Positions 44,630-64,000 of a DNA stretch of 64,000 nt are shown piece by piece (the stretch's first letter is position 1; the number at the start of each line of letters is the position of its first letter). The notes beneath the pieces are model-generated. The model ran no database searches. It saw nothing but the letters and a program-made list of their open reading frames with translations, and was not told the origin of the DNA. The stretch lies in assembly GCA_963666315.2 (NCBI GenBank), contig CAXXHG010000047.1:64001-128000 (forward strand), given 5' to 3'. This DNA is from Candidatus Binatia bacterium. GTDB taxonomy: Bacteria > Desulfobacterota > Binatia > Bin18. The translations under genes and the position numbers were made by a program.

Positions 44630-44638
44630 GGAGGGGGA

Positions 44639-46348: not shown

Positions 46349-46362
46349 GAACCTGTCTATTG

Positions 46363-46393
46363 GGTCAGATATGGGAATCTCCCGTATCTGACC
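46363..46393 (+). terminator. Stem-loop after the deacylase gene
   Basis: GGTCAGATATGGGA / TCCCGTATCTGACC inverted repeat with a weak pyrimidine tail. Confidence 0.45.
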
Positions 46394-46574
46394 TGTCTTC
46401 CCGTCGTCCCATCTTTTGATCCCCGTCGGCAATTCCCACCGCCGTATCAAACGCGTCCGACTAAAACGGAAAGACCCTTGCTTGTGTCCCTTGTCAGCAG
46501 GAAAGGAAACAGAGTAAAGGAGAGAAGGTTTTAGTCCACGAAACCATATAGGAAATCCAGTGACAGGAGGGAGT

Positions 46575-47941: not shown

Positions 47942-48080
47942 GAAGGAGTCTTGTAAGAGTCGAGGGAGAGTCTCAGCCACGGCCTATCGGGACAGAGGCG
48001 GGCATCTCGCGCATCTGCCCCTGCGTAGGCAGCCAGCGTAGGCAGGCGCCCCAGCGTATACCGGGGGCTGTCCTTACAAG

Positions 48081-48782: not shown

Positions 48783-48863
48783 AGGCAGATTTCTTGCTCC
48801 CACTCTATGTGACTCTCTGCGAACTGACTAGCCCTATCGTATTTTCCTCTCTCTTATGTGATT

Positions 48864-49682: not shown

Positions 49683-49873
49683 GGTTTCTCCCCCTTATGT
49701 GGCTAGTGCAGCCTCAGTCTCATTATCCAGTCCGCAGCACAGAAAGATATACCTATTGCCTGCCCCATTGCCTGCATACAGGAAATGGACAGCTCTCATA
49801 CGTCTTTGCAGCACGGCGTAGGAGTGCTATGCCGTAATCATCAAAAAGCATTCTCCATACAAGGAGGGGAAAC

Positions 49874-50872
49874 ATGGAAAACGGACACACGATTTGTTTA
49901 GGAACCGTTGGCGCGGGGGTATGGTATAGCTCTGACAGTGGCGAACGCTGGCGACGAAGTCGGATGAATCTGCCGTTTGATGCTGAGCCTGGGGAAGTCC
50001 AGATTCGTTCGCTGGTTGTCTCTCCGCATGACGCCAACGTCGTGTATGCGGGCTCTGAGGTGGGGCTGTATCGGAGCAAGGACAAAGGCGCGATCTGGGA
50101 CCTGATAGAATCTCCCGCAGACGGGAAACAAATTTGGTCGCTTGCCGTTCATCCGGATGATCCAGACATAATTCTTGTCGGAACCAAACCGCCGTGCGTA
50201 TTGCGTACCAAGGACGGCGGCAAGAACTGGCAAGAATTGCCTATCAATGCTGCTGAGCGCTGCCTTGCCGGAGCGCCCAAGGTCACCAATATCCTTTTTG
50301 ATCCACGCGACTCCGGCACGATCTGGGTGAGCGTTGAGATCGACGGTATCCATCGGAGTACAGATGGCGGTGATAGCTGGCAGCGTCTTCCCGCGCTGGG
50401 CGAAAACGAGCTGAACCAGGATATCCACGGTCTGACGATCAGCCCTGATCCGCACAGAAAAATCATAGCTACCACCCCGGACGGCATTTGGACCAGCACG
50501 GACGAAGGGCAGAGCTGGTCGCTGCACGGTTTCCCGCGTTTCTTCGAGCGGGGCATCTCGTATTGTCGTGGTGTAGCGCTGAAAGCCGATGATTCGGACG
50601 TCATGTTTGTGGGCAACGGCGATTTTATCCCGGGCAAGGTCGGTGCTATCCAGCGTTCGACTGATGGCGGGCAAACGTGGCAGGCCGCTCCTTTACCCGT
50701 CGTCCCCAATTCCACCATTTATTGGTTTGCCACGAATCCGGCGGATCCTGATTTTATTGTGGCCAACAGCCTGCATGGTTATGTCTACACCAGTTATGAC
50801 GCTGGCGTATCGTGGAATAAATCAGAACGGGAGTTTGGTGAGGTGCGAGCCTTAGCTTGGACGCCGAATTAA
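49874..50872 (+). CDS. BNR/Asp-box beta-propeller protein
   Basis: Repeated S.D.G.[ST]W boxes; no signal peptide. Confidence 0.88.
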   Translation: MENGHTICLGTVGAGVWYSSDSGERWRRSRMNLPFDAEPGEVQIRSLVVSPHDANVVYAGSEVGLYRSKDKGAIWDLIESPADGKQIWSLAVHPDDPDIILVGTKPPCVLRTKDGGKNWQELPINAAERCLAGAPKVTNILFDPRDSGTIWVSVEIDGIHRSTDGGDSWQRLPALGENELNQDIHGLTISPDPHRKIIATTPDGIWTSTDEGQSWSLHGFPRFFERGISYCRGVALKADDSDVMFVGNGDFIPGKVGAIQRSTDGGQTWQAAPLPVVPNSTIYWFATNPADPDFIVANSLHGYVYTSYDAGVSWNKSEREFGEVRALAWTPN

Positions 50873-50901
50873 GCTCTCGCCCGCCACAAAAAGTCTACCA
50901 A

Positions 50902-51030
50902 AATCCCTTCTCTCCAGGTAGGAGAGGGGCAGGGTGGGGGGATAGCAGTTGTATAGGATGCAGCCCATGCACCGTGCTCTCTTAGAAAATCTCTTCTAGG
51001 GAGGGGTGGCGCGTAGCGCCGGGGTGGGTT
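50902..51030. repeat. CCCTCTC..GAGAGGG / GGGAGGGGTGGCG..GGGGTGGGTT repeat cluster
   Basis: Two hairpin repeats; the second is similar to 5003 and 30364. Confidence 0.6.
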
Positions 51031-51076
51031 GCCCTTCCTTTTCCGAAGGTGAAGGAGACTAAGAAAGGAAAAACCC

Positions 51077-51610
51077 ATGGCCAGAATTCCATACGTCGAA
51101 AAAGACACGGCAACCGCAGAGGCAAAAGAGTTGTACGATAGTTTTGCCCAGCAGTTTAACCTAGACGATGTGCCCAATGTCGTGAAGGCATTGTCAAATA
51201 ACCCCAAGCTGGCCAAGCGAATTTTTCCACTCGCCGATTACTTTATGCATCAATCCGCCCTGGATCCCCGGTTGCGCGAGTTAGCCGTGCTCATTCTCAT
51301 GAAGCGACTCAACTGCAATTACGGTTTCGTGCGGCACATCTCAATCGCTGAAGGCACGGGGATTTCCCGCGAACAGATCGACACCATTGGTTCGTATCAA
51401 ACGAGCTCGCTGTTTAATGATGACGACAAGTTAATCCTGCGCTACGCTGACGACCTGACCCAGAAGGGCACGGTCGATGACGAGCTATTTCAACAGGTCC
51501 AAGACTGCATAGGACAGCAGCATATTCTCGATCTCACCGCAGCCACCTCATTCTGGAATATGATGGCCCGCAACCTCAACGCCTTACGGGTTGATTTAGA
51601 AGACTGGTAA
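51077..51610 (+). CDS. Carboxymuconolactone decarboxylase / AhpD-like family protein
   Basis: MARIPYV, LDPRLRELAVL...CNYGFVRH and ILRYADDLT motifs. Confidence 0.85.
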   Translation: MARIPYVEKDTATAEAKELYDSFAQQFNLDDVPNVVKALSNNPKLAKRIFPLADYFMHQSALDPRLRELAVLILMKRLNCNYGFVRHISIAEGTGISREQIDTIGSYQTSSLFNDDDKLILRYADDLTQKGTVDDELFQQVQDCIGQQHILDLTAATSFWNMMARNLNALRVDLEDW

Positions 51611-51671
51611 GCTTTGCTCAGAGCCTGTAGGGAGATGAGGTGAGGGTCGTAATGCCGCGAAAAGGGGATCG

Positions 51672-54600
51672 TTAGAGTTTGAGTTGTTTCCTGTCACCAC
51701 AGGAACCACGGATACGCCCCTGCTGCTTTTCAAGAAGGCACTTCTCCGACATCTTCATGACTGTTCTTCCGTTCGCCTCGATCCGTCTGACGAGTGAGAC
51801 TTGGGCGCGCTTCTCTATCTGAGAGACCGAGACCTCGTCTTGCACTATAACCCGGTACTCCTGCTCACAGGCCAGCCTTTGAAAACCTATTCTGGCGCCG
51901 TTATTTACCGCTCCAAGTTCGACTAAAGTCGCCACGTTTTGACATGGATTTTGGTAGGCTAGGCGGACTTTTCTGACCCAATCTTTGGCCTCTTCAATCG
52001 TCACGGTGCTGCTTGCCTCATCCTGGGCCTTCCCTCTGGCTTGCTCAAAGAATACTGCAGCCTCACGGTATCGAGTTCTTGCAGTTGTATACTGCCGACT
52101 ATCACGCAGTTGGTTCGCATTTGCTTGGGCCGATATTCCATCCTGAAATAGTGCTGAAGCATATTGGCGGGCACTAGCTTTTTCGGCTTCTTGTTTCCGT
52201 GCCTCTGCCGTGTCCTGGGCGCCTTGCATCGTCGTTTGGTTTCTCTTACCCGCTTGTTGTTTTGCCCTTGTAGCTGCATCGTTAAAGAAACGGGTTGCTT
52301 GGGCATAGTGTTGTCGTGCTTCCAGATATCGTTGCTCTTGGCTAGATCCGTCGGCTTGGGTCAGGGCATACTGCGCCTTTTGGAGGAGGTCTCGAGCATC
52401 GTTTTTTGCACCAGCCTTTTCAGCTTTTACACGGGCTTGGGCGGCTTGATTTTGTATTGTGTCAACCAGCTTGAGCTGCTGGGTGCGTGCTTGATCTAGC
52501 GCTTGTGAAAAGAGATCTTGGGCACTCCGATATTGCTCGGTGGCCAGTGCGTACTGTTTGTTGGTACCCAGCCGATTCGCCTCTCGGAGCGCATCCATAC
52601 CCTGACTCCAGGAGCGTTCTGCATATTGGGGTGCCTCAATCTGTTTGGCTTGCTGCTGAATGTCGCTCACGAAGGCTGCAAGTTCTATGGCCGTGTTGTT
52701 CTCTTGCGTTGCTGTAGCGAGCTTCTGCTCGGTTCGCTTCCGCGCCTCTTCTTCAGCCTTGCCCTGCGCCACCGCCGCTGCCCTAGCCTCTGCCGCTGCT
52801 TCGCGTCTAGCTTCCTCTTCTGTTACCAGTTGGACCTGTTCCTCGACTTTCCGCTGGGCCGCTACGTCCTCGATTCGCTTTTGCGCTTCTTCTCCTTCGC
52901 GCTGGGCTTCCTCCGTTTTCCGTTGTTCGGCCTGTTGGCGGGCGCCCTCGGTTTGTTGGGCGAGTGTTTTGCTTTGGTCGACCAACGGGGTGGGGACGGG
53001 CGGTGGAGGCCGCTTTGCGACCACTTGCACTGGTTCGTCTGGAATCGGGCCGGTTTCTGTATCGGGCGGCTCAAGAAATCGAACCAGAATTGTGGCAGCA
53101 ATAAGAATACTAGCGGCAGCGGCAAGACGGGGGGCATACTGCTTGAACAGAGCGCCTCTACGGGCCTGCTCGGCAATGCTCAGGGCATCTTTATATGCCC
53201 GGATGGCCGCTGAGTACTGGGCGGTTGCTCGGGAATAGTCCGCGTCAGCCAAGAGCGGTGCGGCTTGCTGGGAGGCTTGCTCACCGTCAGTATAGCGCGC
53301 TTGGGCGCTCGGCCACTGAGCGAGGCCAAATGCCTCCGCCTTTGCCCTGGCTTGCTCTGTCGTAGCCTGGGTCTGGACGGCAGCCCGACGGGCGGCCTCG
53401 CGCTCGGCCTGCGTTACCGCTTTGACATACAGCTCCGCTGCCTGTGCAAATTGTTCCTTGGCCTCGGTGTATGCTTGTGTGTCAAACTCGGCCTGCGCGC
53501 TGCTCAGCGCTCTTGTCGCCTCGCGCCACGCCGTCTCCGCCAGCCCCTGAGCTTGGGCGTCGCGTGCTGTCTGTTGGCCGGCTAGCGCTGAGGCCTGAGC
53601 CTGGAGGGCAGCCTGACGGGCGGCCTCGCGCTCGGCCTGTGTTACCGCTTCGGCATACAGCTCCGTTGCCTGTGTAAATAGATGCGCCGCCGTGGCGTAG
53701 GCTGCAGAAGCAGGGGTCGCCTGCGCTGCCTGGAAAGTCTCTGATGCTTGGGTAAGACTATCCTCCGCAGCCGTCCAGGCGGTCGGAACAAGTGCCTCAG
53801 CGTCACACGCTTGCGCCTTTACCCTGGCTTTCTCTGCCGCCGTCTGGGCTTGTTCCGTCGCTTGGCGGGCGGCCTCGAGCTCTGCCTGTGTAGCCGCTTT
53901 GGCATACAGCTCCGCTGCCTGCGTCAATAGATGCGCCGCCGTGGTGTAGGCTGCAGAAGCAGGGGTTGCCTGCGCTGCCTGGAAAGTCTCCGTTGCTTGG
54001 GTAAGACTATCCTCCGCGGCCGTCCAGGCCGTCGGAACAAATGCCTCAGCGTCACACGCTTGCGCCTTTGCCCTGGCTTTCTCTGCCGCTGTCTGGGCTT
54101 GTTCCGCCGCCCGGCGGGCTGTTTCCTGTTCCGCCGTCGTCTGGGCCGCCTCGTACTGAGTGGTCGCTGCCGCGAACTGCCCCTGGGCGGTCGTATACCT
54201 GGCCGCGTCGTCTTCCTCCCCTGCACGCGTAAACGTTGTCGTCGCTGCTCCCAACGCAGCCTCTGCTGCCGTCCAGTCTTCTCTCGCCAGGGGCTCCGCT
54301 TGGGCGGCCTGGGCCTGGGCTCGGGCGTGTGCGGCCGTTTCCAGCGCCGCTGCCGCTAGGTCTTGAGCCGCCTGCACGCAGGCGAGGGTCTCCGCAGCCG
54401 CAAAGCATTCCGCGGCCGCCTGAAACTGTGTCGCGGCTTCGGTATAATCGTGGGCTTCCCATGCCGCCTGCGCCCGCCCAAGCACGGCTTCTGCTTGCTC
54501 CCACTCCGTGGGTGCAAGACCCGCCGCCTGCGCGCCCGCCGCTTGTCCCTTTGCCCTGTCAGCCTCGCCCTGTGCTGCCTGCGCTGCCGCTCCCTGCGTC

Positions 54601-57600
54601 CCGCGTGTGGCGATGCTCAGCGCCTCTTCATACGCCTGGGTTGCCGCTGCGTACAACGGGCTGGCCTGACGATACTCCGTCCTGTCCCAGTGGTCGGCTG
54701 CTTGGCCGTAGGCCGCGTCGCCAGCCGTCACGCGGGCTTGGGCTTGTGGCCAGGAACGGATATCCGTGGCCTCAGTTCGTTCCTTCGCGCTCTTGGTGGC
54801 TTGCTTCGCAGGCTCCGCCTCTCGGCGGGCTGCTTCCTGGTCAGCGGCTATCCGGGCCGCCTCGTAGAGAGTGGTTGCCGTCTCAAACTGGGCGATTGCG
54901 GTCGTACACCCCGCTGCGTCGTGTTCCTCCTCCGCGCGCTCAAATGTGGCGCTGGCTTCTCCCCACGTCGCTTCCGCGTCGTCCCAGTCGCTCGGTGCTA
55001 AGGTGGCTGCGTGCGCCGCTTCGGCTCCCTCACGGGCAGCCAGCGTCACACGTTGGGCCGTCTCGGCGCTGCGCCGTGCCGCCTCCCCCTCCGCGCTTGC
55101 CTGCGCCTCCCCATAGAGTGCGGTCGCCGCCTGAAACTGCGTCTCCGCTAGCGTATAGTCGTGGGCCTTCCATGCCGTCTGCGCTTGCCCAAACTCTCCT
55201 CCCGCGGCTATCCACTCCGCCTGCGCCAAGGCTACCGCCTGCGCCGCCGCTGCCTGGCCCCTCGCCCGATTAGCCTCGCCCTGTGCTGCCTGCGCTGCCG
55301 CTCCCTGCGTCCCGCGTGTGGCGATGCTCAGCGCCTCTTCATACGCCTGGGTTGCCGCTGCGTACAACGGGCTGGCCTGAAGATACTCCGCCCTGTCCCA
55401 GTGGCCGACGGCTTGCCGGTAGACCTCGTCCGCGGCCGTCACGCGGGCTTGGGCTTGTGGCCAGGAGCGGATATCCGTGGTCTCAGTTTGTCCCTTTGCG
55501 CTCTGGGCGACTTGCTTCGCTGTCTCCGCCTCCCGGCGGGCGGTCTCTTGGTCAGCCGCCGTCCGGGCCATCTCGTAGTGAGTGGTTGCCGTCTCAAACT
55601 GGGCGATTGCGGTCGTACACCCCGCTGCGTCGTGTTCCTCCTCCGCGCGCTCAAATGTGGCGCTGGCTTCTCCCCACGTCGCTTCCGCGTCGTCCCAGTC
55701 GCTCGGTGCTAAGGTGGCTGCGTGCGCCGCTTCGGCCTGCGTGTGCGCGTGTTGGGCTGCTCCCTGTGCCGCCTGCGCCGCTTTATGAGCCGCCTGCAGC
55801 CGCGCGGCCTCCGCTGCCGTCGCGAAGAATTCTGCTGCCGCCTGAAACTGCGCCTCCGCTGCGGTATACGTGGCGGCAGCCGGGGTCTCCTCTGCCTCTT
55901 GGAAGACGGCCTCGGCTGACTCTGCCTGCGTGACGGCCTGCTGCCACGCAGGAGCAACGAGTCTTTCCGCGCTGGCCGCCTGTGCCTGCGCGTGGGCGGC
56001 GGCGACGGCGTTACGGGCAGTCGCCGCCGCACTGGCCGCCGCTCTGACGGCCCGTTTCGCTTTCCGCCGCTTATCTTCTTCTAGTGCTTGTTCCTGAAGG
56101 GCCCCAAACTCCTGGTTAGCTTGCGTGTAACAGGGGAGCGCGGCAGTCCAGTCTTGGGCTTCTGCGTGCGCGAGGCCCGTACTGAGCCGTTGCGCCACTT
56201 CTGCGAACTCCTGAGCAGAAAATATCTTTGCGCCAGCTAACTCTGCCCCTTCTTGAGCGCGCTGCGCGTCTTCGCACGCGACTTGGGCTTTTTCCTTATT
56301 GGCTAGAGAGAGCAGTAGCTCAAAAGCGGAAATAACGGTAGTGTACGCACTCAGCGCTGTTTCATAGTCTTCCTGGTCGAAGGCCTCTTCTGCACGCCGC
56401 CACTGCTCTTCCGTAGCGGTTGACTCGTTTGGAACGAGGTCCTGGGCTCCCTCCCCTATGACTCGGTCCCGTAGCTGCTGGGCCGCTTCCTGGGGCACCA
56501 GATCTAAGGCTTCCCTGAAAGAGGCCGCCGCTTTCTCATAGCCTAATCCGTCCTGCGCCTGCGTTTGGTGGGCTACCCCGTCGCGGTAGGCCTTTGCAGC
56601 ACGTGGCCAGTTTTGCACACCCCGTTTATCCGCTTCTTGTCGAAGCCGTTCGGCCTGCTCGGGGGCGGCCGCAGCCCAGGCCGCTTGGGCTGCCTCTCCA
56701 AAAAGTTGCCGGGCTTCTTCGTAAGCCGTTACGGCCTTCGTATAGGAGCGCGCCGCGATCAGCTGCCCGCCCTCTGCTTCCCGCTCTCCTGCCCGATTCC
56801 AGAGGTCGGCTGCCCAGTGTCCCGCCTCTTTTTCTTCCGCCTGCTGTTTGGCATTCCCTAGCTCCGCTCGGACTGCCAGGGCCTGCTCGAATGCCGGCAA
56901 CACCTCCCGGCACTGATCAATCGCTTGCAGCAGGGCCTGCATGTCTGGATAGCGATCATCGGGACGCCAGGTGATCGCTTGTCTCAGCAGATCCTCGAAT
57001 TCGGGTAAGCCTCCAATGTCGAGAGTCCGAATGGCCTCGCGGTTTGGGTACGGATGCACCCGCTCGCCCGTATAGAGCTCGGCCATCACCAAGCCGAGGG
57101 AATAAATATCGCTCCGGTGGTCAAGATTTTTCAGACCATTGAATTGCTCTGGAGAGGCATACGCTCCCGTGAACACCATAGTCCCGGTATGGCCGGTGTC
57201 ACCTTCTTGGACCTTCTTGGCAATGCCCAGGTCCATGACTACCACCCGCTCCGTGTCGTCCTCGATCATAATATTGGGCGGTTTGATATCCCGATGGACC
57301 AGCTGCTGGCCGTGCATATACGACAGTGCGTCGGCGACCTGATCCGCAATATCGAGCACACGGCGAAGGGGGAGTCCTGCAGCGGAAGCCAACGGTTGGG
57401 TTGTCTCGGTGAACTTGACCGTTTCGTCGAGTTGGTTGAGTACTTCCCGCAGCGTTTGGCCTCGGATGTACTCCATCAGGATGTAATTGCAATCCTTCTC
57501 CTCGTCGTACTCCGCATCGAAGACTTGGACGATGTGATCGTGCTTGCCGAGCTGCGCCATCCTTTGCGCTTCATTCTGGAAGCGCTCAACCATGGCTCCA

Positions 57601-57767
57601 TCTGCCGCAAATTGAGGCGAGAGAATCTTTAAAGCGCGATGCACATTCAGTCTGCGCTGGAGCACTTCGTACACCTCTCCCATGCCGCCGACGCCGACCA
57701 GCTTGAGGACGGTGTAGCGACCATCGATGATGTCGTCCTGGGAAAGGGTTTGTTTCGCCTCAGACAT
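51672..57767 (-). CDS. Giant (2031 aa) membrane-anchored Hanks-type Ser/Thr kinase with Ala-rich helical repeats
   Basis: GVGGMGEVY, ALKIL, HRDIKPPN, DLGIAK, YASPEQ and SDIYSLG. About 16 repeats, then a TM helix (about aa 1548-1565), a Pro linker, 3 more repeats and a Cys-containing C-terminal domain. Confidence 0.92.
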   Translation of the reverse strand: MSEAKQTLSQDDIIDGRYTVLKLVGVGGMGEVYEVLQRRLNVHRALKILSPQFAADGAMVERFQNEAQRMAQLGKHDHIVQVFDAEYDEEKDCNYILMEYIRGQTLREVLNQLDETVKFTETTQPLASAAGLPLRRVLDIADQVADALSYMHGQQLVHRDIKPPNIMIEDDTERVVVMDLGIAKKVQEGDTGHTGTMVFTGAYASPEQFNGLKNLDHRSDIYSLGLVMAELYTGERVHPYPNREAIRTLDIGGLPEFEDLLRQAITWRPDDRYPDMQALLQAIDQCREVLPAFEQALAVRAELGNAKQQAEEKEAGHWAADLWNRAGEREAEGGQLIAARSYTKAVTAYEEARQLFGEAAQAAWAAAAPEQAERLRQEADKRGVQNWPRAAKAYRDGVAHQTQAQDGLGYEKAAASFREALDLVPQEAAQQLRDRVIGEGAQDLVPNESTATEEQWRRAEEAFDQEDYETALSAYTTVISAFELLLSLANKEKAQVACEDAQRAQEGAELAGAKIFSAQEFAEVAQRLSTGLAHAEAQDWTAALPCYTQANQEFGALQEQALEEDKRRKAKRAVRAAASAAATARNAVAAAHAQAQAASAERLVAPAWQQAVTQAESAEAVFQEAEETPAAATYTAAEAQFQAAAEFFATAAEAARLQAAHKAAQAAQGAAQHAHTQAEAAHAATLAPSDWDDAEATWGEASATFERAEEEHDAAGCTTAIAQFETATTHYEMARTAADQETARREAETAKQVAQSAKGQTETTDIRSWPQAQARVTAADEVYRQAVGHWDRAEYLQASPLYAAATQAYEEALSIATRGTQGAAAQAAQGEANRARGQAAAAQAVALAQAEWIAAGGEFGQAQTAWKAHDYTLAETQFQAATALYGEAQASAEGEAARRSAETAQRVTLAAREGAEAAHAATLAPSDWDDAEATWGEASATFERAEEEHDAAGCTTAIAQFETATTLYEAARIAADQEAARREAEPAKQATKSAKERTEATDIRSWPQAQARVTAGDAAYGQAADHWDRTEYRQASPLYAAATQAYEEALSIATRGTQGAAAQAAQGEADRAKGQAAGAQAAGLAPTEWEQAEAVLGRAQAAWEAHDYTEAATQFQAAAECFAAAETLACVQAAQDLAAAALETAAHARAQAQAAQAEPLAREDWTAAEAALGAATTTFTRAGEEDDAARYTTAQGQFAAATTQYEAAQTTAEQETARRAAEQAQTAAEKARAKAQACDAEAFVPTAWTAAEDSLTQATETFQAAQATPASAAYTTAAHLLTQAAELYAKAATQAELEAARQATEQAQTAAEKARVKAQACDAEALVPTAWTAAEDSLTQASETFQAAQATPASAAYATAAHLFTQATELYAEAVTQAEREAARQAALQAQASALAGQQTARDAQAQGLAETAWREATRALSSAQAEFDTQAYTEAKEQFAQAAELYVKAVTQAEREAARRAAVQTQATTEQARAKAEAFGLAQWPSAQARYTDGEQASQQAAPLLADADYSRATAQYSAAIRAYKDALSIAEQARRGALFKQYAPRLAAAASILIAATILVRFLEPPDTETGPIPDEPVQVVAKRPPPPVPTPLVDQSKTLAQQTEGARQQAEQRKTEEAQREGEEAQKRIEDVAAQRKVEEQVQLVTEEEARREAAAEARAAAVAQGKAEEEARKRTEQKLATATQENNTAIELAAFVSDIQQQAKQIEAPQYAERSWSQGMDALREANRLGTNKQYALATEQYRSAQDLFSQALDQARTQQLKLVDTIQNQAAQARVKAEKAGAKNDARDLLQKAQYALTQADGSSQEQRYLEARQHYAQATRFFNDAATRAKQQAGKRNQTTMQGAQDTAEARKQEAEKASARQYASALFQDGISAQANANQLRDSRQYTTARTRYREAAVFFEQARGKAQDEASSTVTIEEAKDWVRKVRLAYQNPCQNVATLVELGAVNNGARIGFQRLACEQEYRVIVQDEVSVSQIEKRAQVSLVRRIEANGRTVMKMSEKCLLEKQQGRIRGSCGDRKQLKL
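53645..54106. repeat. Intragenic direct repeat, period 249 bp
   Basis: 53645-53857 vs 53894-54106 are near-identical. Confidence 0.85.
54561..55736. repeat. Intragenic direct repeat, period 711 bp
   Basis: 54561-55025 vs 55272-55736 are near-identical, with long perfect stretches. Confidence 0.9.
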
Positions 57768-57982: not shown

Positions 57983-58762
57983 TTAGCGCGCGGCGGTCTC
58001 CTCGTAGGCCAGGACAATCACCGTGCTATTATCTGGACCGCCCCGTTCGTTGGCTAAATCCACCAGACCATCACACGCGGTTTGTAAATCCTGCCCTTCT
58101 GCTGTCACTATCTCTAGGAGTTCCTGATCGTTTATTACCCCGTGGACACCATCACTGCACAGAACAAATAGATCTCCAACTTGTGGTGTTTCCATACGGA
58201 TATCGGGGCGCACCATGGCACTCGTCCCTACGGCTTGGGTGAGCATATGTCTGGAGGGGTGTGTGCGCATCTCCTCCTGCTCTATTTCGCCCTGCCGAAA
58301 GAGCTGTTGGACGATGGAATGATCTTCGGTGAGCTGATCAAGTTGGCCGTCTCGAACACGGTAGACGCGCGAGTCTCCCACGTGGCTGATACACACGACT
58401 TTTTCCTGTAGGTCAAATAGGATGGCCGCGATCGTCGTGCCCATGCCCTCCAAGGCTGCGTCTTGCTTGCTCCGTTCGAACACGTCGTTGTTGGCTTGAT
58501 GAACGGCCATTTCGAGCCGGCGTCCGCCAGTAGAATAGTGTCCACTAGAGTCTGCCATGGGGGTCAGGTCCTCTGCTTGAGTATTTCCGAGAGAGCGTCG
58601 CATGGTCTCTACCGCCAAAGCGCTGGCAACGGCTCCACCCTGGTGCCCACCCATGCCGTCAGCGACTATGTAAAAGGCCAGCTCCGAACAACAGCCAAAG
58701 GAGTCCTCGTTCTTTTTACGGACCTTTCCTATATCGCTCCGGACTGCAGATTGAATGATCAT
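57983..58762 (-). CDS. PP2C-type (Stp1/PrpC) Ser/Thr protein phosphatase
   Basis: SDIGKVRKKNED, VADGMGGHQGG, GMGTT, HVGDSR, LCSDG and GGPDNST motifs; AGGAG RBS. Confidence 0.94.
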   Translation of the reverse strand: MIIQSAVRSDIGKVRKKNEDSFGCCSELAFYIVADGMGGHQGGAVASALAVETMRRSLGNTQAEDLTPMADSSGHYSTGGRRLEMAVHQANNDVFERSKQDAALEGMGTTIAAILFDLQEKVVCISHVGDSRVYRVRDGQLDQLTEDHSIVQQLFRQGEIEQEEMRTHPSRHMLTQAVGTSAMVRPDIRMETPQVGDLFVLCSDGVHGVINDQELLEIVTAEGQDLQTACDGLVDLANERGGPDNSTVIVLAYEETAAR

Positions 58763-58864
58763 GAGACACTCTCCTATCTGGACGAGAGCAACGTTGCAGG
58801 TAACCACAATACTGATTTTCTTTATCTATGTCGCCTACTTAGTGGCTGTCAAGCTTCTTATTGT

Positions 58865-59740
58865 TTATCTGAGGGCTCCACGCAGCGTGAGGTCTTGCAG
58901 CGGGCTGAAATAGGCGTCGTCGCTCCGATCACGTGGAACCGGCATATGCACCCAGTCAACGCGTCTGCCCGTCTCAGCAACTGCAGCATTCGCCATGCGC
59001 ACGCTGAGCCCGAGATCCTGTGGCTGTTTCATATGCTGATGGCCCAGGTCTGCATAACAAAAATGGTAGCCTAACAAGACCTCGTCCGGAATCTGAGCGG
59101 AGAGACGCTGGATCTCGGTCACATAGCGCTGCCACGCATCTCCTGGCGGAGCCCAAGGGAAAATGCCCTCAATCTCTAAGACCTCCCAGCAGACGTCCCA
59201 CTGCAGCGCCAGATCCTCAGCCGGAATCTGCTCGACTATTTTCTCGACCTCGTGCAGCATGGCTGCCTCATACGGCGGGATTATGCGCGCCAGGTTGCCC
59301 GGCTGCTGAAAGAACCAGCCTGAACCGCCCAGAGGAGTGGGTAGGCTGACTTGAAACCGAACGGACTGGGGAATGACCCCTTGGTCACGCAGACGACAGA
59401 ATGTGCGGTACGAATCGACAGCCGCACTCGCATATTTGAGATCCGAAAATTGGATCTCCTGCGTCCACTCTTTTATTGTGAAGCGCCACGCATCCTCCAG
59501 GTCGCCCGGCATCCAGGGTTCTGGTCCCCGTTGGAGTTGATGCAGGTTGACGAGTTGTGCGTGCTCATGAAATATCCGATACGCCTGGAAGATGACCCAG
59601 ATGGTGCGGTCGCCGACTTCCCCATCAGGCAGACAGGTGACATGCGCACCCAGCTCTCGGGCACACGTGCTGAAGACCTCTGCGGCGGTATCCAGCGGGA
59701 CACTGCCAACCAGCAGAACTGAACCGGTCAAGTCTGACAT
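58865..59740 (-). CDS. UROD/MetE-like TIM-barrel protein, probably 3'-truncated
   Basis: LVGSVPL, PDGEVGDR, RFQVSLPTP, LQWDVCWE, HFCYAD and HMPVP motifs; ends at LQDLTL without the usual final LG../CG.GR segment. Confidence 0.7.
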   Translation of the reverse strand: MSDLTGSVLLVGSVPLDTAAEVFSTCARELGAHVTCLPDGEVGDRTIWVIFQAYRIFHEHAQLVNLHQLQRGPEPWMPGDLEDAWRFTIKEWTQEIQFSDLKYASAAVDSYRTFCRLRDQGVIPQSVRFQVSLPTPLGGSGWFFQQPGNLARIIPPYEAAMLHEVEKIVEQIPAEDLALQWDVCWEVLEIEGIFPWAPPGDAWQRYVTEIQRLSAQIPDEVLLGYHFCYADLGHQHMKQPQDLGLSVRMANAAVAETGRRVDWVHMPVPRDRSDDAYFSPLQDLTLRGALR

Positions 59741-59758: not shown

Positions 59759-61372
59759 TTACGATGGTGCAATCAAAAATGATGCGAGGTAGCGCTCAAG
59801 CAAGGCGTATTCGTCGATGTTGCACCGAAAACCGATATATCCATCCGGGCGCACCAAGACAAACTCGCCGTTGGCCGACACGTTCAGAGTGTGTGCGACC
59901 TTGCCCTCCGGATCTGCTATCGGCAGCAAGGCGGGCCACGGATGGGGCACGGTGGGTGCGATCAACTCGAATTTTACGCAGGCAGCGTAGCCTGCTTGAA
60001 TCGCACTCAGGGCGGCGGCGGCGTCAGCTAATTGCTCATCTTGTGCCTGTCCCAACACGCTCAGGAGGGTAAAGCGGGTGTGGCTAAACAGTTGGTGCAA
60101 GCGCAGATGCTCGGAAATGGCCACATCGGGGGCGCGGTCACCGATAGCCGGATCCCAGTGGGTTGCAGTGCCTGCCGGCAACTCGATAAGTCCGCGGTAG
60201 TTATAGCTGAGTCCGGATATGCGGGCCACGGCATTGTCCTGCCAATTCTCGCTCTGGGTAAGCGCCATGCGGTCTGCCAAGCCCTGGCCGTGGGCGAGAA
60301 TAATTTCATGCACGGCTGAGCTGCCTTCGATCACTTGATCGGTCACGGGCTCGCGTTCGCGCTCATAGGTGTCGAGTAACGCAGGCTTTGCATACCCTTG
60401 AATCACCAAAGCGATTTTCCATGCCAGGTTGTAGGCATCTTGGATGCACACATTCCAGCCTTGGCCGCCGGCGACCGAGTGCACGTGCGCCGATTCCCCA
60501 CACAGAAAGACATGGCCTTTGCGGTAGGCGTCGGCTTTGCGGATCCAGATCTCCCAGGTTGTTTTCCATTCCGGCTCGCCGATTTTTACGGCAGGCAGAT
60601 GGTCTGCGACTATCGGGCCGACGTGATCTTCTTGCGCAAATTCTCCGCTATCCCCCTGGCTGCTGACCAGCACGCGATGATTGGGGCCGGCCAGCTTGCC
60701 GATCATGAGGAAGGTATCTTTGGCGATATAGTAATGCAGCATATGATCCGAGCCCTCGAAATTCTCAAGCTCGGCGTCAACCATCTGCATGACCAGGCCC
60801 TCATATTCCGAGCCCTCATACTTGAATCCCAGGCATTCGCGAGTGGGACTATGCAGGCCGTCACACGCGATCACCCAATCCGGCTTGATGATCTCTTCGC
60901 TCTCGCTGTCCCCCGTCTTGTGCGTCTCGTGATTGACGCTCACCGTCACCGTGCCGTCGGCGCTCTCCTCGATATTGGTGAGTTCCGTACTCCACTCGAT
61001 GGGCAAACCCAGATCGTGTTCCAGATGATCGCGTAAAACCTTTTCGGTCTCATTTTGATTAAACATGCACACGAACGGATAGCGCGTAGGCAAGCGCGTG
61101 TAGTCCAAGCCGGCTTTCATATCGCTGCCCTTGAAATTAAAGACATACCCGTCGTTTCTGACACCGCCATGTAAAAAGCGCCCGACTATGCCGATGTCTT
61201 CGAGCATCTCCAGCGTTCGGGCATGTACGGTAATCGCGCGCGAGGTGTCGGACGGGCCGGGCCGTCTCTCGATAATGCGGCACTAAATGCCGCGCCGGCG
61301 TAGCTCGATGGCAGTCCCGAAACCCGTGGGTCCTGCCCCCACGACGAGAACTTGTGGATGGTTATCGTTCAT
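59759..61372 (-). pseudogene. FAD-dependent phenol monooxygenase, PcpB-like, with an in-frame TAG at codon 30
   Basis: ATG at 61372: VLVVGAGPTG...RRGI*CRIIER...HARTLEM, in frame with the 482-aa ORF. Motifs CDG, GESAHVHS and QDAYNLAWK. Confidence 0.85.
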
Positions 61373-61394
61373 ATTTATACCTGTTATATCGCAA

Positions 61395-62450
61395 TCAGAG
61401 ATTCCGGACATGCGGCAGCACGTGCTTGGCGAAACGTTCGAGTGACCGCAAAATCTTGTCCTGCCTCATGCCCCCGAAGTTCACTTCAAGCAGCATATAG
61501 GTGAGGCCCAAGCCGTCCTTGATGTTCTTGATGCGTTGCACGCAGCGCTCGGGGCTGCCAAAGATCAGTCCATCGCCTTTGTCCATAATGTCATAGCTGA
61601 GCTGGGCGAAGATGTCGCCGAGTCCTTTGCCATATGCCTTATACTGTGCGGACTGCCACGGTTTATCCAGACCGGCGAAGAACTTGAGATAGCGATCTAA
61701 TTCTGTTTCGGCTTCACGCCGCGCCTGGCCGTCGTCTTCGGCTATATACATGTGGTAGGCGCCCTGTACTTCTCGTTGGGCCGGATCGTATCCGTTGTCG
61801 ACTAAGGTTTGCCGATATAAATCGACCCGCTCGCGCAGCGGTCCAAAGGTCGGATAAGCGAACGGCACGAGCATGATGTTATAGCCGCGCTCTCCAGTCC
61901 ACATGAACGACTCGGGTGACGCCACGGCAGCGGCCCAGATGGGTGGGTGGGGTTGCTGCACCGGCGTGGGCAGGGTTTTGACCGGCTCGATGTTGAAATG
62001 GGTGCCGGCATACTCGACCTCGCCCTGGGTCCAGGCTTGGAGAATGATATCCAGGGCTTCATGGTAGCGGCCTTGGCTGTGGTCGGGGTTGACCCCGAAC
62101 AGGTCGTACTCGTGGCGCAGAATACCCCGGCCGATACCGAAATCGAGCCGTCCGCCGCTGAGAACATCCAGCATCGCATATTCCTCGGCCGTCTTGATCG
62201 GATGCGTCAGGGGTAACAGCGTCACCCCAGTCCCAAAGCGTATGCGCTTAGTGCGCTGTGCGGCTGCGGCGGCAAAGATAGGCGGTGAGGGAAACGCATA
62301 GCCGCCGACGTAGTGCTCGGCAAACCAAACGCCATCGATGCCGATTTCTTCACACAGATCGATTTGCTCTAATATCTCACCGTAGTAATGGCTGGACGAT
62401 TTGTGGCGTTCTTCGTAGTAGTCGGGAATATACAAAACACCGAATTTCAT
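61395..62450 (-). CDS. LLM-class flavin-dependent oxidoreductase
   Basis: VWFAEH, AEEYAMLDVLSGGRLDFGIGRG and SLERFAKHVLP motifs. Confidence 0.9.
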   Translation of the reverse strand: MKFGVLYIPDYYEERHKSSSHYYGEILEQIDLCEEIGIDGVWFAEHYVGGYAFPSPPIFAAAAAQRTKRIRFGTGVTLLPLTHPIKTAEEYAMLDVLSGGRLDFGIGRGILRHEYDLFGVNPDHSQGRYHEALDIILQAWTQGEVEYAGTHFNIEPVKTLPTPVQQPHPPIWAAAVASPESFMWTGERGYNIMLVPFAYPTFGPLRERVDLYRQTLVDNGYDPAQREVQGAYHMYIAEDDGQARREAETELDRYLKFFAGLDKPWQSAQYKAYGKGLGDIFAQLSYDIMDKGDGLIFGSPERCVQRIKNIKDGLGLTYMLLEVNFGGMRQDKILRSLERFAKHVLPHVRNL

Positions 62451-62487
62451 TGTGTCTTCCTTGTGATGCGCCTACGTTTACAGATTT

Positions 62488-63549
62488 TTACGGACCTTGC
62501 GGCCGCCGGCCATGAAAGGCGTTGTCCAGCAGCGTTCGGATCGACTCCTGGTTGAACGGACGTGGATTATAGTATGGGTTTTGGGTGGCGAGCTGCGCGG
62601 CGCGATCCAAATCCGCCTCTTGCAAACCCAGGTCTTTGAGCGCGACTGGAATCTGCAACGTCACGGCCAGGTCGTAGAGTCCTTGCGCGGCGTCTTCCGT
62701 GCCCAGCGCGCGGGCTACGCGCGCGTGCGCGTCCGCTGCGGCCGGAAAATTAAACGCTGCGGCATGGGGCAGAACTATCGTATGGGTTTCTGCATGGGGC
62801 AGATTAAACGTCCCGCCTAACGTGTGACACAGCTTGTGGTGCAGGGCCATGCCCACTGATCCCAAGGTCACTCCGGCCAGCCAGGCTCCGTACAGGGCCT
62901 GCGCTCGGACGTCAATATCTTGGGACGCCTCCCTAAGCTGAGGCAGGCTGTTGGCCAAGGCGCGAATGCTTTCTTCCGCCATAAGCGACGCAATCGGATT
63001 GGCATCTTCGGCGTATAGTCCCTCAACACTATGCGCGATAGCATTCATGCCGCTCGTCCCCGACAGCTGAGTGGGTAAGCTGAGGGTCAGCGTTGGGTCG
63101 TAAATAACAGTCCGAGGCCGGATGCGCTCATTTCTTCCCGTTTGTTTGACACCCTCGGCCGTCAGTCCCCAGATCGGCGTCATCTCAGAGCCGGCATACG
63201 TAGTCGGAATGGCAATAAAAGGAAAGTCGAGTTTCAGGGCGATGGCTTTGCCCAAACCGGTTGTTGATCCTCCGCCTATGGCGACACCGCCATCGATGTC
63301 CGCGTCTTTGACCACCTGTATGGCTGCGCTTTGGGTGGCAACCGGCACGTGCATGACCGCCTGGTCAAAGATGGTCACGGCCCGTGAACCTATGAGGGTG
63401 GCAACCCGCTGTCCCTGATCCTGCTGTTCCGGCGTGGACAGGATGACCACCCGGGATAAGCCGAGTCGGTCCAGCTCATCAGGCAGTTGGTCGAGACTGC
63501 CCGCGCCAAAGACTACGCGGCTGGTCAGCATCTCACACGTGAATTTCAT
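62488..63549 (-). CDS. Maleylacetate reductase (iron-ADH family)
   Basis: RVVFGAGS, AVMHVP, GGGSTTGLGKAIA, PTTYAGSEMT and MALHHKLCHTLGGTFNLPHAETH motifs. Confidence 0.93.
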   Translation of the reverse strand: MKFTCEMLTSRVVFGAGSLDQLPDELDRLGLSRVVILSTPEQQDQGQRVATLIGSRAVTIFDQAVMHVPVATQSAAIQVVKDADIDGGVAIGGGSTTGLGKAIALKLDFPFIAIPTTYAGSEMTPIWGLTAEGVKQTGRNERIRPRTVIYDPTLTLSLPTQLSGTSGMNAIAHSVEGLYAEDANPIASLMAEESIRALANSLPQLREASQDIDVRAQALYGAWLAGVTLGSVGMALHHKLCHTLGGTFNLPHAETHTIVLPHAAAFNFPAAADAHARVARALGTEDAAQGLYDLAVTLQIPVALKDLGLQEADLDRAAQLATQNPYYNPRPFNQESIRTLLDNAFHGRRPQGP

Positions 63550-63934
63550 GACGGTCTCTCCTCGCTGATGCGGATCTGATCCGGATCATGCCGTTGTGTT
63601 GGCTGACTGGGACCAGATCGAGGGAGGCAGCTCTGCACGGTCCGTCGATGCAATAACCATCGTCATACTGGAACAGGGCGGTATGGTTGGCACACATAAT
63701 CAGGCTGTGATTTGAGGTCACAAAACGATCCTGCTGTACGTTGATGGGAATAGAAAAATGCGGACAGCGATTGGGATAGCCCCAGACCTCTGCTCCGCGC
63801 CGCACCACAAACATCCGAAACGCGTGGTAGCCGCTACCAAAGACAAACTCCTTACCCTGTCCATCGGGGATATCGTGCAGCTGACACAGAGGGGTGCCCA
63901 GGGCGGGGGCATTACGCTGTGTTTGCCATTCCAT
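63533..63934 (-). CDS. Rieske (2Fe-2S) ferredoxin-like protein
   Basis: NRCPH...IMCANHTALF...G.CIDGPC motifs. Confidence 0.9.
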   Translation of the reverse strand: MEWQTQRNAPALGTPLCQLHDIPDGQGKEFVFGSGYHAFRMFVVRRGAEVWGYPNRCPHFSIPINVQQDRFVTSNHSLIMCANHTALFQYDDGYCIDGPCRAASLDLVPVSQHNGMIRIRSASARRDRHEIHV

Positions 63935-63947
63935 AATGACAGCTCAA

Positions 63948-64000
63948 TTACAGATCGATGGGATACGGCGAGAGTTCGCCGCTGTCATATCGGTCGGGCA
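63948..64000 (-). CDS. 3' end of an upstream gene of the same operon (unidentified)
   Basis: ...PDRYDSGELSPYPIDL* stops 14 nt before the Rieske start codon. Confidence 0.45.
   Translation of the reverse strand, partial: PDRYDSGELSPYPIDL

What the first reader, a model, noticed from the sequence alone, without database searches (positions are those of the whole stretch)
59759..64000. PcpB-like monooxygenase in an operon with maleylacetate reductase, a Rieske protein and an LLM enzyme: candidate natural halophenol pathway
Seen: the flavoprotein contains RYPFVCMFNQNETEKVLR, RECLGFKYEGSEYE and HEIILAHGQGLADRMALTQSENWQDNAVARISGLSYNYR. From memory these align closely with Sphingobium pentachlorophenol 4-monooxygenase PcpB (RYPFITIYNQNETERVLR; HEIIMGHGKGLTDRIELTQ..W..A..RVSGMSYNYR), outside the generic FAD motifs. 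Established: PCP and nitrophenol pathways run through hydroquinone ring cleavage to maleylacetate reductase, which is two genes upstream here. Inference: a para-hydroxylation (halo/nitro)phenol pathway in a non-sphingomonad, with an LLM enzyme, a Rieske protein and a MetE-like gene as unusual partners. It could point to the natural substrate of the PcpB clade, such as biogenic halophenols.
Basis: partly seen in the sequence, partly recalled or inferred. Interest (0 to 1): 0.75.

Follow-up and report, generated by a model that had tools for sequence, protein, structure and literature searches.

The report
Broken PcpB-related flavin monooxygenase gene
This is an interrupted copy of an uncharacterised phenol-hydroxylase-type flavoenzyme that is a real but distant (39% identical) relative of pentachlorophenol hydroxylase, lying beside a maleylacetate reductase gene in an arrangement not seen in any relative examined, so it is a fairly ordinary aromatic-breakdown gene row and not yet a clue to a halophenol pathway.

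Summary
A 537-codon minus-strand ORF (61372..59759) carries the three quoted peptides and an in-frame TAG at codon 30. It follows a small Rieske-type protein, a maleylacetate-reductase-like Fe-ADH and an LLM enzyme, with 13-37 nt gaps or overlaps.

The PcpB resemblance is real: 39% identity, E 1e-139, and all three motifs align. In trees the protein's own family (62-95% identity, mostly Gammaproteobacteria MAGs) is one of about six subclades in a well-supported clade that also holds PcpB. It is not shown to be PcpB's sister.

The pathway inference is weak:
- Maleylacetate reductase and the Rieske protein lie beside the homologue in 0 of 23 related loci.
- No ring-cleavage dioxygenase shows up in the rest of the window or in the neighbour genes scanned.
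- The gene is interrupted, and the next gene (MetE-like) lacks its last ~65-70 residues at an abrupt homology break.
- Three frameshifts elsewhere in the window mean the TAG could be an assembly error.

Verdict: a new member of a known enzyme kind, substrate unknown, low to moderate interest.

The parts
63948..64000 (-). Possible 3' end of a further upstream gene that runs in from beyond the window. One minus-strand frame is open for 16 codons and stops (TAA, 63950..63948) 13 nt before the Rieske start.
   Evidence: It is too short to identify. A second frame is also open to 63944, so coding status is not shown.
63533..63934 (-). 133-aa small Rieske-type [2Fe-2S] protein (CPH, then 21 residues, then CANH). 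Its end overlaps the start of the next gene by 17 nt.
   Evidence: The motif was read from the translation. Pfam Rieske_2 reaches only E 0.084. There is no significant PDB hit. In the Atlas, 30 of 30 nearest clusters are PF00355 Rieske clusters of 123-130 aa, with scores up to 0.97.
62488..63549 (-). 353-aa maleylacetate-reductase-like iron-type alcohol dehydrogenase family protein, apparently intact.
   Evidence: Pfam ADH_Fe_C at 9.7e-46 and Fe-ADH at 4.9e-27. PDB hits, all full length: 3jzd 429 bits, 3hl0 'maleylacetate reductase' 363 bits, 3w5s 'maleylacetate reductase' 360 bits.
61395..62450 (-). 351-aa luciferase-like monooxygenase (LLM), apparently intact. Its subfamily is not resolved.
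   Evidence: PF00296 at 1.4e-61. All NCBIfam matches are below their cut-offs; the best are LLM_2I7G at 153 bits (cut-off 462) and seco_metab_LLM at 152 bits (cut-off 244). The best PDB hit is 7bip at 183 bits, which is RslO1 of rishirilide biosynthesis (PMC8093152, one passage read).
59759..61372 (-). 537-codon group-A flavoprotein monooxygenase of the PcpB-containing clade. It has GAGPTG at residues 12-17, CDGLHS, a 'GESAH' variant of the GD motif, and a C-terminal thioredoxin-like domain. It is interrupted by TAG at codon 30.
   Evidence: sequence. FAD_binding_3 at 4.1e-60 and Rng_hyd_C at 2.5e-9; 39% identity to PcpB; trees.
61283..61285 (-). In-frame TAG (codon 30), lying between the dinucleotide-binding motif and the rest of the FAD domain.
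   Evidence: At this column the 30 relatives in alignment A1 have D15, E6, A3, H2, Q1, N1, R1, S1. The 94-95% identical relative P0002 has Q, so a single CAG to TAG change would explain it (inference).
58865..59740 (-). 291-aa ORF: a 3'-truncated member of a large Pfam-less family of about 350 aa. It is distantly MetE-C-terminal-like (HxC ... ECGF). Homology to relatives ends at residue 286 (about window 58880).
   Evidence: about 92% DNA identity to L009 stops abruptly. L009 357 aa and L010 351 aa share a conserved C-terminus that is absent here; all 120 listed homologues are 332-392 aa, and none has a Pfam domain; weak MetE link.

Best explanation
The gene encodes a single-component, NAD(P)H- and FAD-dependent aromatic hydroxylase (group A flavoprotein monooxygenase with a C-terminal thioredoxin-like domain). 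It belongs to a broad, well-supported clade that also contains pentachlorophenol 4-monooxygenase PcpB, but it sits in its own deep, uncharacterised subfamily found mostly in Gammaproteobacteria MAGs.

By analogy with the family (inference), it would use a C4a-hydroperoxyflavin to hydroxylate an activated phenolic ring. In this genome the product could feed a (hydroxy)hydroquinone route to maleylacetate and then 3-oxoadipate, through the adjacent maleylacetate reductase. The LLM would then be a second flavin-dependent oxygenase and the small Rieske protein an electron carrier.

The substrate is unknown, and nothing points specifically to halogenated phenols.

As sequenced, the copy is not functional. 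A TAG at codon 30 cuts the protein after the FAD dinucleotide-binding motif, and the next ATG (Met55) would give a protein without that motif. The downstream MetE-like gene has lost its C-terminal 65-70 residues, including a near-invariant Glu-Cys, at a rearrangement or assembly junction.

The lesion is either recent or a sequencing error, because the gene has evolved under purifying selection.
For: Family and architecture:
- FAD_binding_3 at 4.1e-60 plus Rng_hyd_C at 2.5e-9.
- The best NCBIfam model is PRK06184 at 302.6 bits.

Relation to PcpB:
- 39% identity, E 1e-139, full length.
- FastTree of 248 rows puts the family (33 rows, support 100) inside a 106-row clade (support 99) that holds PcpB, itself inside a 139-row clade (support 100).
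- IQ-TREE 'quick' on 68 of those rows, rooted on E. coli MhpA, puts the family (100*) and the PcpB subclade (100*) inside a 43-row clade (SH-aLRT 99*), within a 55-row clade (100*, stem 0.69).

Gene row and neighbours:
- The row is tight, with gaps of 13-37 nt or overlaps.
- No terminator-like site lies in an intergenic gap. The 2 found lie inside the monooxygenase gene, against 5.0 expected from shuffles.
- Maleylacetate reductase identity: 360-429 bits to solved MARs.

Inactivation:
- The TAG, with TAG used as a normal stop in 15 of 55 ORFs.
- Truncation of the downstream gene.

Purifying selection against the 95% relative L009: dN/dS 0.11 over 382 codons of the monooxygenase and 0.15 over 286 codons of the downstream gene.
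Against: - The association with maleylacetate reductase is seen only here. tblastn of the window's MAR and Rieske proteins found them in 0 of 23 related loci. The LLM matched only 29-35% identical paralogues, 0.5-9 kb away, in 2 of 23 loci. The juxtaposition may therefore be fortuitous.
- No ring-cleavage dioxygenase family matched in the 49 ORFs covering 1..57767, in 51 of 81 neighbour ORFs of close relatives, or in 44 of 66 neighbour ORFs of the 36-42% relatives.
- Neighbours of close relatives vary: GSTs in 5 of 10 loci, PhyH in 3, SRPBCC 'polyketide cyclase' in 3, hydantoinase in 3. They give no common pathway.
- The nearest solved structures are polyketide and rifampin oxygenases (about 126-143 bits), so a tailoring or detoxifying role is possible.
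- The NCBIfam PRK06184 cut-off (476 bits) is not met.
- The window holds at least three frameshifts in two other genes, one of them in a G-run. The TAG and the junction could therefore be assembly artefacts, and the gene could be intact in the organism.
Confidence: 0.6

Rival explanations
1. One reading: an intact-in-nature para-hydroxylating (halo/nitro)phenol monooxygenase that starts a natural halophenol pathway running through a hydroquinone to maleylacetate. This would reveal the ancestral substrate class of the PcpB clade.
For: - Membership of the PcpB-containing clade.
- A sister relation of the family and the PcpB subclade is not rejected (p-AU 0.138, 31 rows, LG+G4).
- A maleylacetate reductase lies two genes upstream.
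- An ORF runs in from beyond the window end and could be the missing dioxygenase.
- Many family members come from marine-type sources; for example two of the listed hits carry 'tara' names.
- GST genes lie near the homologue in 5 of 10 close-family loci.
- The original substrate of PcpB is an open question (PMC3318906, passages read).
Against: - Identity to PcpB is only 39%, and the same paper warns that specificity cannot be assigned at about 35%.
- The MAR link is absent from 23 of 23 related loci.
- No dehalogenase, quinone reductase or ring-cleavage dioxygenase was seen.
- The neighbouring GSTs are generic. The 267-aa one is best matched by the lignin beta-etherase LigF at 87 bits, and the 219/237-aa ones by YfcG-like disulfide reductase models. 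None points to PcpC or PcpF.
- The gene is interrupted as sequenced.
Confidence: 0.12
2. The adjacency is an accident. A monooxygenase plus MetE-like two-gene module (the pairing that recurs elsewhere) was placed next to an unrelated Rieske-MAR-LLM unit by rearrangement or by chimeric assembly, and the two units do not share a pathway.
For: - The monooxygenase/MetE-like pairing recurs in L009 (95% / 91% identity, same order) and in L010 (66% / 58%, reversed order), while MAR, LLM and Rieske do not recur.
- One clear homology breakpoint already lies at the other end of the module.
- The window carries other lesions.
- LLM genes are common here, with two more in the window at 8477..9469 and 14257..15279.
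Against: - The gap between the LLM and the monooxygenase is 22 nt, with no terminator-like site in any gap. This looks like a settled operon junction.
- L009 starts inside the monooxygenase gene, so the closest relative says nothing about the upstream side.
- MAR beside a phenol hydroxylase is a biochemically sensible pair (established knowledge of the hydroxyquinol and chlorohydroquinone pathways).
Confidence: 0.2
3. The enzymes are tailoring or detoxifying oxygenases acting on a polycyclic or secondary-metabolite aromatic compound, not on a simple phenol.
For: - The best solved relatives of the monooxygenase are 4x4j, rifampin monooxygenase 5kow, OxyS-type 4k2x and PgaE/CabE (118-143 bits).
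- The best solved relative of the LLM is RslO1 of rishirilide biosynthesis.
- SRPBCC 'Polyketide_cyc2' genes lie directly downstream in 3 of 10 close-family loci.
Against: - These PDB scores are about a third of the score to PcpB and reflect which structures happen to be solved.
- No polyketide synthase or other biosynthetic core was seen in the window.
- A maleylacetate reductase points to catabolism.
Confidence: 0.08

Closest known systems
Pentachlorophenol 4-monooxygenase PcpB of Sphingobium/Sphingomonadaceae (cluster P0069, source name Q935V4)
   Same: Same architecture and length (537 vs 543 aa). 39% identity over the full length, E 1e-139, and the quoted non-cofactor motifs are shared. 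Both fall in the same strongly supported clade. In both genomes a maleylacetate reductase takes part in, or lies near, the pathway (pcpE in the PCP pathway, PMC3318906).
   Different: It is not an orthologue. True PcpBs are 72-98% identical to each other (PMC3318906). The window's family is a separate subclade with a long stem. The GD motif reads GESAH where PcpB has GDAAH. No pcpD-type reductase or pcpR-type regulator was seen nearby. The gene is interrupted. Activity is unknown.
NCBIfam PRK06184 subfamily ('hypothetical protein', FAD monooxygenases)
   Same: It is the best-scoring curated model, matching residues 5-534 of the protein.
   Different: The score of 302.6 bits is below the curated cut-off of 476 bits.
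Aromatic polyketide and rifampin group-A monooxygenases with solved structures (4x4j, 5kow, 4k2x, PgaE 2qa1)
   Same: Same fold family, and the nearest solved structures by sequence (126-143 bits).
   Different: Much more distant than PcpB. They act on polycyclic substrates in biosynthesis or antibiotic inactivation.
Hydroxyquinol / (chloro)hydroquinone catabolic clusters that end in maleylacetate reductase (for example pcpE, and GraC = 3w5s)
   Same: A full-length MAR homologue (360-429 bits to solved MARs) lies in the same gene row as a phenol-hydroxylase-type enzyme.
   Different: No ring-cleavage dioxygenase is visible. An LLM, a small Rieske protein and a MetE-like gene are unusual companions. 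No paper in the searched library holds 'maleylacetate reductase', 'luciferase-like monooxygenase' and 'Rieske' together. The arrangement is not seen in 23 related loci.

Membership tests
Group A flavoprotein monooxygenase (PF01494) with C-terminal thioredoxin-like domain | Pfam FAD_binding_3 and Rng_hyd_C above their gathering scores | tested here: met
   204.3 bits (cut-off 22) and 37.8 bits (cut-off 27.5)
Group A flavoprotein monooxygenase (PF01494) with C-terminal thioredoxin-like domain | GxGxxG, DG and GD fingerprint motifs (motif names recalled from general knowledge of the class) | tested here: inconclusive
   GAGPTG (12-17) and CDGLHS are present. The GD motif reads GESAH, with E invariant in 31 of 31 family sequences. 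PcpB has GDAAH.
Group A flavoprotein monooxygenase (PF01494) with C-terminal thioredoxin-like domain | Uninterrupted reading frame | tested here: not met
   TAG at codon 30. TAG is a normal stop in this window.
PcpB, pentachlorophenol 4-monooxygenase (EC 1.14.13.50) | Orthologue-level identity (72-98% among accepted PcpBs, PMC3318906) | tested here: not met
   39% identity. The paper passage was read.
PcpB, pentachlorophenol 4-monooxygenase (EC 1.14.13.50) | Falls inside, or as sister to, the PcpB subclade in a tree | tested here: inconclusive
   Same 43-row clade (99*), but the subclades form an unresolved polytomy. A forced sister relation costs 10.2 lnL units, p-AU 0.138, so it is not rejected.
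PcpB, pentachlorophenol 4-monooxygenase (EC 1.14.13.50) | Hydroxylation and dechlorination of PCP | not testable with these tools
   Needs an enzyme assay.
NCBIfam PRK06184 | Score at or above the curated cut-off | tested here: not met
   302.6 bits against a cut-off of 476
Maleylacetate reductase (Fe-ADH superfamily) | Full-length, high-scoring similarity to solved MARs | tested here: met
   3hl0 363 bits (residues 8-350), 3w5s 360 bits, 3jzd 429 bits. No MAR-specific NCBIfam model matched. Activity was not tested.
Rieske [2Fe-2S] protein | CxH ... CxxH ligands and a Rieske domain match | tested here: inconclusive
   The CPH / CANH motif is present. Pfam Rieske_2 reaches E 0.084, below its cut-off. 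In the Atlas, 30 of 30 nearest clusters are PF00355.
Cobalamin-independent methionine synthase C-terminal (MetE-like) fold | Significant profile match and Zn-ligand motifs (HxC ... C) | tested here: inconclusive
   No Pfam or NCBIfam hit. The family profile's top PDB hit is 1ypx at E 0.04, with HxC and CGF aligned. The nearest Pfam-bearing Atlas cluster is PF01717 at 0.82, a lead only. The window copy lacks the C-terminal Cys.

The most novel reading that the evidence does not exclude
The 62-95% identity family is an uncharacterised lineage that may turn out to be the sister of the PcpB subclade. That relation is not rejected (p-AU 0.138). If so, in this one genome the family would be wired to a maleylacetate reductase, an LLM and a Rieske carrier as a genuine natural pathway for substituted (possibly halogenated or methoxylated) phenols, and the recurrent MetE-like Zn enzyme partner would act on the same substrate, for example by removing or transferring a methyl group. 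That would give a handle on the pre-industrial function of the PcpB lineage.
Probability: 0.1. Interest if true: 0.6.

Novelty: new member of a known kind. Interest (0 to 1): 0.27.

Why it matters
The source and original substrate of PcpB are acknowledged open questions (PMC3318906). A natural relative embedded in a complete pathway would make them testable. This locus does not deliver that. The relative is distant, the pathway context is unique to this window and incomplete within it, and the gene is interrupted.

Two things are still useful. First, there is now a defined, well-supported PcpB-containing clade with at least six subclades, whose intact members could be screened. Second, a very large Pfam-less family of about 350 aa, distantly MetE-like, recurs beside this monooxygenase family.

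Tried and rejected
Recoding of TAG: rejected, because TAG ends 15 of 55 ORFs.

Restart at Met55: rejected as a route to function, because the 482-aa product lacks GAGPTG.

Conserved synteny with MAR, Rieske or LLM: looked for and not found.

Synteny of the rest of the window with related loci: only 26-37% identical paralogues, apart from the MetE-like gene in L009 and L010.

The missing 3' end of the MetE-like gene and L009's next gene (a 425-aa FAD_binding_3 protein, PRK07538 598 bits): searched for in the whole window and absent. The break is therefore not a simple insertion within the window.

Plasmid collection searched with PcpB: 327 records, all below 60% identity (best 36.6%), and all generically annotated. 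It gave no characterised reference.

GST neighbours: checked for PcpC/PcpF-likeness, with no specific signal.

Promoter and terminator scan: counts were below the shuffled expectation and uninformative.

Literature search for PcpB with bromophenol, marine or OdcA terms gave nothing relevant in the 20 listings seen.

AU test on the 68-row set with the mixture model did not finish in two calls. It was repeated on 31 of the 68 rows with LG+G4.

Structure prediction failed and was then switched off. No model or fold search of the MetE-like protein or the monooxygenase was made. A profile search against PDB sequences was used instead.

Full report
**What is there**

On the minus strand at the right end of the window lies a tight, co-directional gene row.
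- A 133-aa protein (63934..63533).
- A 353-aa Fe-ADH family protein (63549..62488, overlapping the previous gene by 17 nt).
- A 351-aa luciferase-like monooxygenase (62450..61395, after a 37-nt gap).
- A 537-codon FAD monooxygenase frame (61372..59759, after a 22-nt gap).
- A 291-aa ORF (59740..58865, after an 18-nt gap).

Next come a PP2C phosphatase gene (58807..57983) and a 2031-aa Ser/Thr kinase gene (57767..51672).

One minus-strand frame is open from the window edge and stops 13 nt before the first gene, so the row may continue beyond 64000. No terminator-like site falls in any intergenic gap. The scan found fewer sites than shuffles did.

**The observation**

TAG is an ordinary stop in this window: 15 of 55 greedily chosen ORFs end in it.

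The TAG sits just after the GAGPTG dinucleotide-binding motif. The first ATG after it (Met55, the 482-aa ORF) would give a protein without that motif.

In an alignment of 30 close relatives the column is variable (D15, E6, A3, H2, Q1, N1, R1, S1). The 94-95% identical relative P0002 has Gln, so one CAG to TAG transition would explain the stop (inference).

**Is it PcpB-like?**

Yes, at the level of a clade, but it is not an orthologue.
- By phmmer PcpB scores 428 bits. Solved enzymes score far lower: polyketide and rifampin oxygenases 126-143 bits, phenol 2-monooxygenases 95-106 bits, a 2,4-dichlorophenol 6-monooxygenase 94 bits, and PnpA 78.5 bits.
- About 67 clusters rank above PcpB. The protein's own family (P0002-P0039, 62-94% identity) is separated from everything else by a gap down to 45% or less.
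- In the exhaustive search of 50%-identity representatives, the own-family representative scores 850 bits and the next 496 bits. A band at 340-455 bits follows, then a smooth decline.
- The best curated model, NCBIfam PRK06184, scores 302.6 bits against a cut-off of 476.

**Trees**

*FastTree, 248 rows.* The rows were the query, the 246 fetched proteins of 470-620 aa (21 others of the 268 on hand were dropped for length), and E. coli MhpA as outgroup. The family (33 rows, support 100, stem 0.68) falls inside a 106-row clade (support 99) that holds PcpB. That clade lies inside a 139-row clade (support 100, stem 0.49).

*IQ-TREE 'quick', 68 rows.* These rows were chosen from the 248 to span the groups, and the model was LG+C20+F+G4.
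- The picture is the same. The family (100*, stem 0.78), the PcpB subclade (6 rows, 100*) and three or four other subclades form an unresolved polytomy in a 43-row clade (SH-aLRT 99*).
- That clade lies within a 55-row clade (100*, stem 0.69).
- The only indicated sister of the family is the pair P0045/P0052 (support 84, not starred).

*AU test.* Forcing the family and the PcpB subclade together costs 10.2 log-likelihood units and is not rejected (p-AU 0.138). This used 31 of the 68 rows and LG+G4, and the group was named after seeing the tree.

A specific PcpB relationship is not shown either.

The S. chlorophenolicum genome paper (PMC3318906, passages read) makes three relevant points:
- Accepted PcpBs are 72-98% identical to each other.
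- Homologues at about 35% identity annotated as PCP hydroxylase are probably wrongly labelled.
- The original substrate of PcpB is unknown.

**Neighbours in the window**

*Fe-ADH protein.* It is a full-length maleylacetate reductase homologue: 3jzd 429 bits, 3hl0 363 bits, 3w5s 360 bits.

*LLM.* It is intact, but no NCBIfam subfamily cut-off is met. Its best solved relative is 7bip at 183 bits. That is RslO1 of rishirilide biosynthesis (PMC8093152, one passage read).

*133-aa protein.*
- It carries CPH...CANH.
- Pfam and PDB sequence searches give nothing significant. The Rieske_2 match reaches only E 0.084.
- All 30 nearest Atlas clusters are PF00355 Rieske clusters of similar size, with scores up to 0.97.
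- I accept it as a small Rieske-type protein.

*291-aa ORF.* It has no Pfam, NCBIfam or PDB sequence match.
- Its family is very large: at least 4524 hits at E 1e-5 or better among the 8000 candidates scored.
- All 120 listed members are 332-392 aa, and none has a Pfam domain. One of the 120 is named 'methionine synthase II (cobalamin-independent)'.
- A family profile's top PDB hit is 1ypx, a B12-independent methionine synthase family protein, at E 0.04. The family's invariant HxC and near-invariant ECG(F) align to the corresponding motifs.
- The Atlas gives PF01717 clusters only as a 0.82 lead. It also shows the fold fused to SAM methyltransferase domains in 685-aa actinomycete proteins.
- 'MetE-like' is therefore plausible but not established.

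**Signs of damage**

- The window and locus L009 are about 92% identical in DNA (the monooxygenase proteins are 95% identical). This runs from inside the monooxygenase gene up to codon ~286 of the 291-aa ORF, where similarity stops abruptly.
- L009 continues for 71 more codons (357 aa in all). L010's copy is 351 aa with the same conserved C-terminus, including ATECGFGRR.
- The window instead has five unrelated codons, a stop, and then the phosphatase-kinase genes.
- The missing tail, and L009's next gene, are nowhere else in the window.
- Elsewhere in the window, a cyclase/ATPase/TPR gene (15596..18998) needs two frame changes. One, near 16270, looks like a G lost from a G-run. An amidohydrolase gene (about 46560..47941) needs one.
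- This lesion density fits either a pseudogene-rich genome or an error-prone assembly, and I cannot tell which.
- dN/dS against L009 is 0.11 over 382 codons of the monooxygenase and 0.15 over 286 codons of the MetE-like gene. Any inactivation is therefore recent, or is an artefact.

**Is the pathway context conserved?**

No. L001-L010 carry a close-family monooxygenase (64-95% identity) and L011-L023 a 36-42% relative.

The window's operon proteins were compared with all 23 loci by tblastn:
- Maleylacetate reductase: found in 0 of 23 loci.
- Rieske protein: found in 0 of 23 loci.
- LLM: only 29-35% identical paralogues, 0.5-9 kb away, in 2 of 23 loci.
- MetE-like gene: directly adjacent in 2 of 23 (L009 after the monooxygenase, L010 before it).

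L009 begins inside the monooxygenase gene, so the closest relative is silent about the upstream side.

*Close-family loci.* Pfam scans covered 51 of the 81 neighbour ORFs (the monooxygenases themselves and the more distant ORFs were left out). They showed:
- GSTs in 5 of 10 loci.
- A PhyH dioxygenase directly upstream in 3 loci.
- An SRPBCC 'Polyketide_cyc2' protein directly downstream in 3 loci.
- Convergent hydantoinase genes in 3 loci.
- No ring-cleavage dioxygenase.

The GSTs are generic. The best PDB hit for the 267-aa type is LigF at 87 bits, and the 219/237-aa types match YfcG-like models.

*More distant loci.* 12 of 13 were scanned (L020 was too short), using 44 of 66 ORFs. They showed:
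- A ~287-aa protein with a cytochrome-c (PSCyt1) domain directly downstream in 7 of 12 loci.
- An Amidohydro_2 protein upstream in 4 of 12 loci.
- No MAR and no ring-cleavage dioxygenase.

*The rest of the window.* The 49 ORFs covering 1..57767 have no ring-cleavage dioxygenase family. No paper in the searched library combines 'maleylacetate reductase', 'luciferase-like monooxygenase' and 'Rieske'.

**Interpretation**

*Shown:*
- A PcpB-clade group-A flavoprotein monooxygenase gene, interrupted as sequenced.
- A tight gene row with an intact MAR homologue, an LLM and a Rieske-type protein.
- A truncated downstream partner.

*Inferred:*
- The enzyme family hydroxylates a phenolic substrate through a flavin hydroperoxide.
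- In this genome the product may be funnelled through a ring-cleavage step (not seen) to maleylacetate and then 3-oxoadipate.

*Not supported:*
- Any specific link to halogenated or nitro-phenols.
- Any claim that this locus reveals PcpB's natural substrate.

The rival readings remain open. They are a fortuitous juxtaposition of two modules, or a tailoring/detoxification role.

**What stayed unchecked**

- Sequence beyond 64000.
- Read support for the TAG and for the junction.
- Source names and organisms for the nearest proteins (unavailable).
- Any 3D model.
- The position of characterised enzymes other than PcpB and MhpA in the tree.
- Supplementary tables of PMC3318906, which were not consulted.

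**Verdict**

This is a new, apparently broken member of a known enzyme kind. The pathway and 'natural halophenol' inference rests on a single, unconserved and incomplete gene arrangement.

Noticed in passing
window 58865..59740; L009:1168-2241; L010:145-1200: The gene after the monooxygenase belongs to a very large family of about 350 aa with no Pfam or NCBIfam model (at least 4524 hits at E<=1e-5; all 120 listed are 332-392 aa). It has invariant HxC and a near-invariant ECG. It is distantly MetE-C-terminal-like, and it is also found fused to SAM methyltransferase domains in 685-aa actinomycete proteins.
   Followed up: partly
window about 58879..58883: There is an abrupt end of about 92% DNA identity with L009 inside the MetE-like gene. 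Beyond it the window continues into a PP2C phosphatase gene and a 2031-aa Ala-rich repeat Ser/Thr kinase gene. This is either a rearrangement or an assembly junction.
   Followed up: partly
window 15596..18998: An adenylate/guanylate cyclase, ATPase and TPR regulator gene is split over three reading frames. The frame changes lie near 16270 (what looks like a G lost from a G-run) and near 17010.
   Followed up: partly
window about 46560..47941: An amidohydrolase gene has its first ~24 codons in another frame (frameshift near 46640).
   Followed up: partly
L013, L014, L015, L016, L017, L019, L023 (directly downstream of the 36-42% monooxygenase homologue): A ~287-311-aa protein with a PSCyt1 cytochrome-c domain follows the PcpB-clade monooxygenase in 7 of 12 high-GC Gammaproteobacteria MAG loci. 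A DUF3300 protein often lies next to it, and an Amidohydro_2 protein lies upstream in 4 of 12. This pairing of a flavin monooxygenase with a cytochrome-c-domain protein is conserved and unexplained.
   Followed up: no
window 51672..57767: A 2031-aa Ser/Thr kinase has a long, very Ala/Gln/Glu-rich internally repeated region. Local GC rises to 0.69 with strong AT skew.
   Followed up: no
window 1..4903 and 27959..31884: There are two tandem molybdopterin-binding large-subunit genes, plus a complete CoxL/S/M-type set (xanthine dehydrogenase / CO dehydrogenase family). The window also holds two further LLM genes (8477..9469, 14257..15279) and a seven-gene Mrp antiporter operon (19309..24998).
   Followed up: no
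alignment A1 (close family), residues 291-307 of the window protein: The family's FAD 'GD' motif is invariantly C-G-E-x-x-H...SVAGGQGWN (Glu in place of the usual Asp) in 31 of 31 sequences. PcpB has GDAAH.
   Followed up: no
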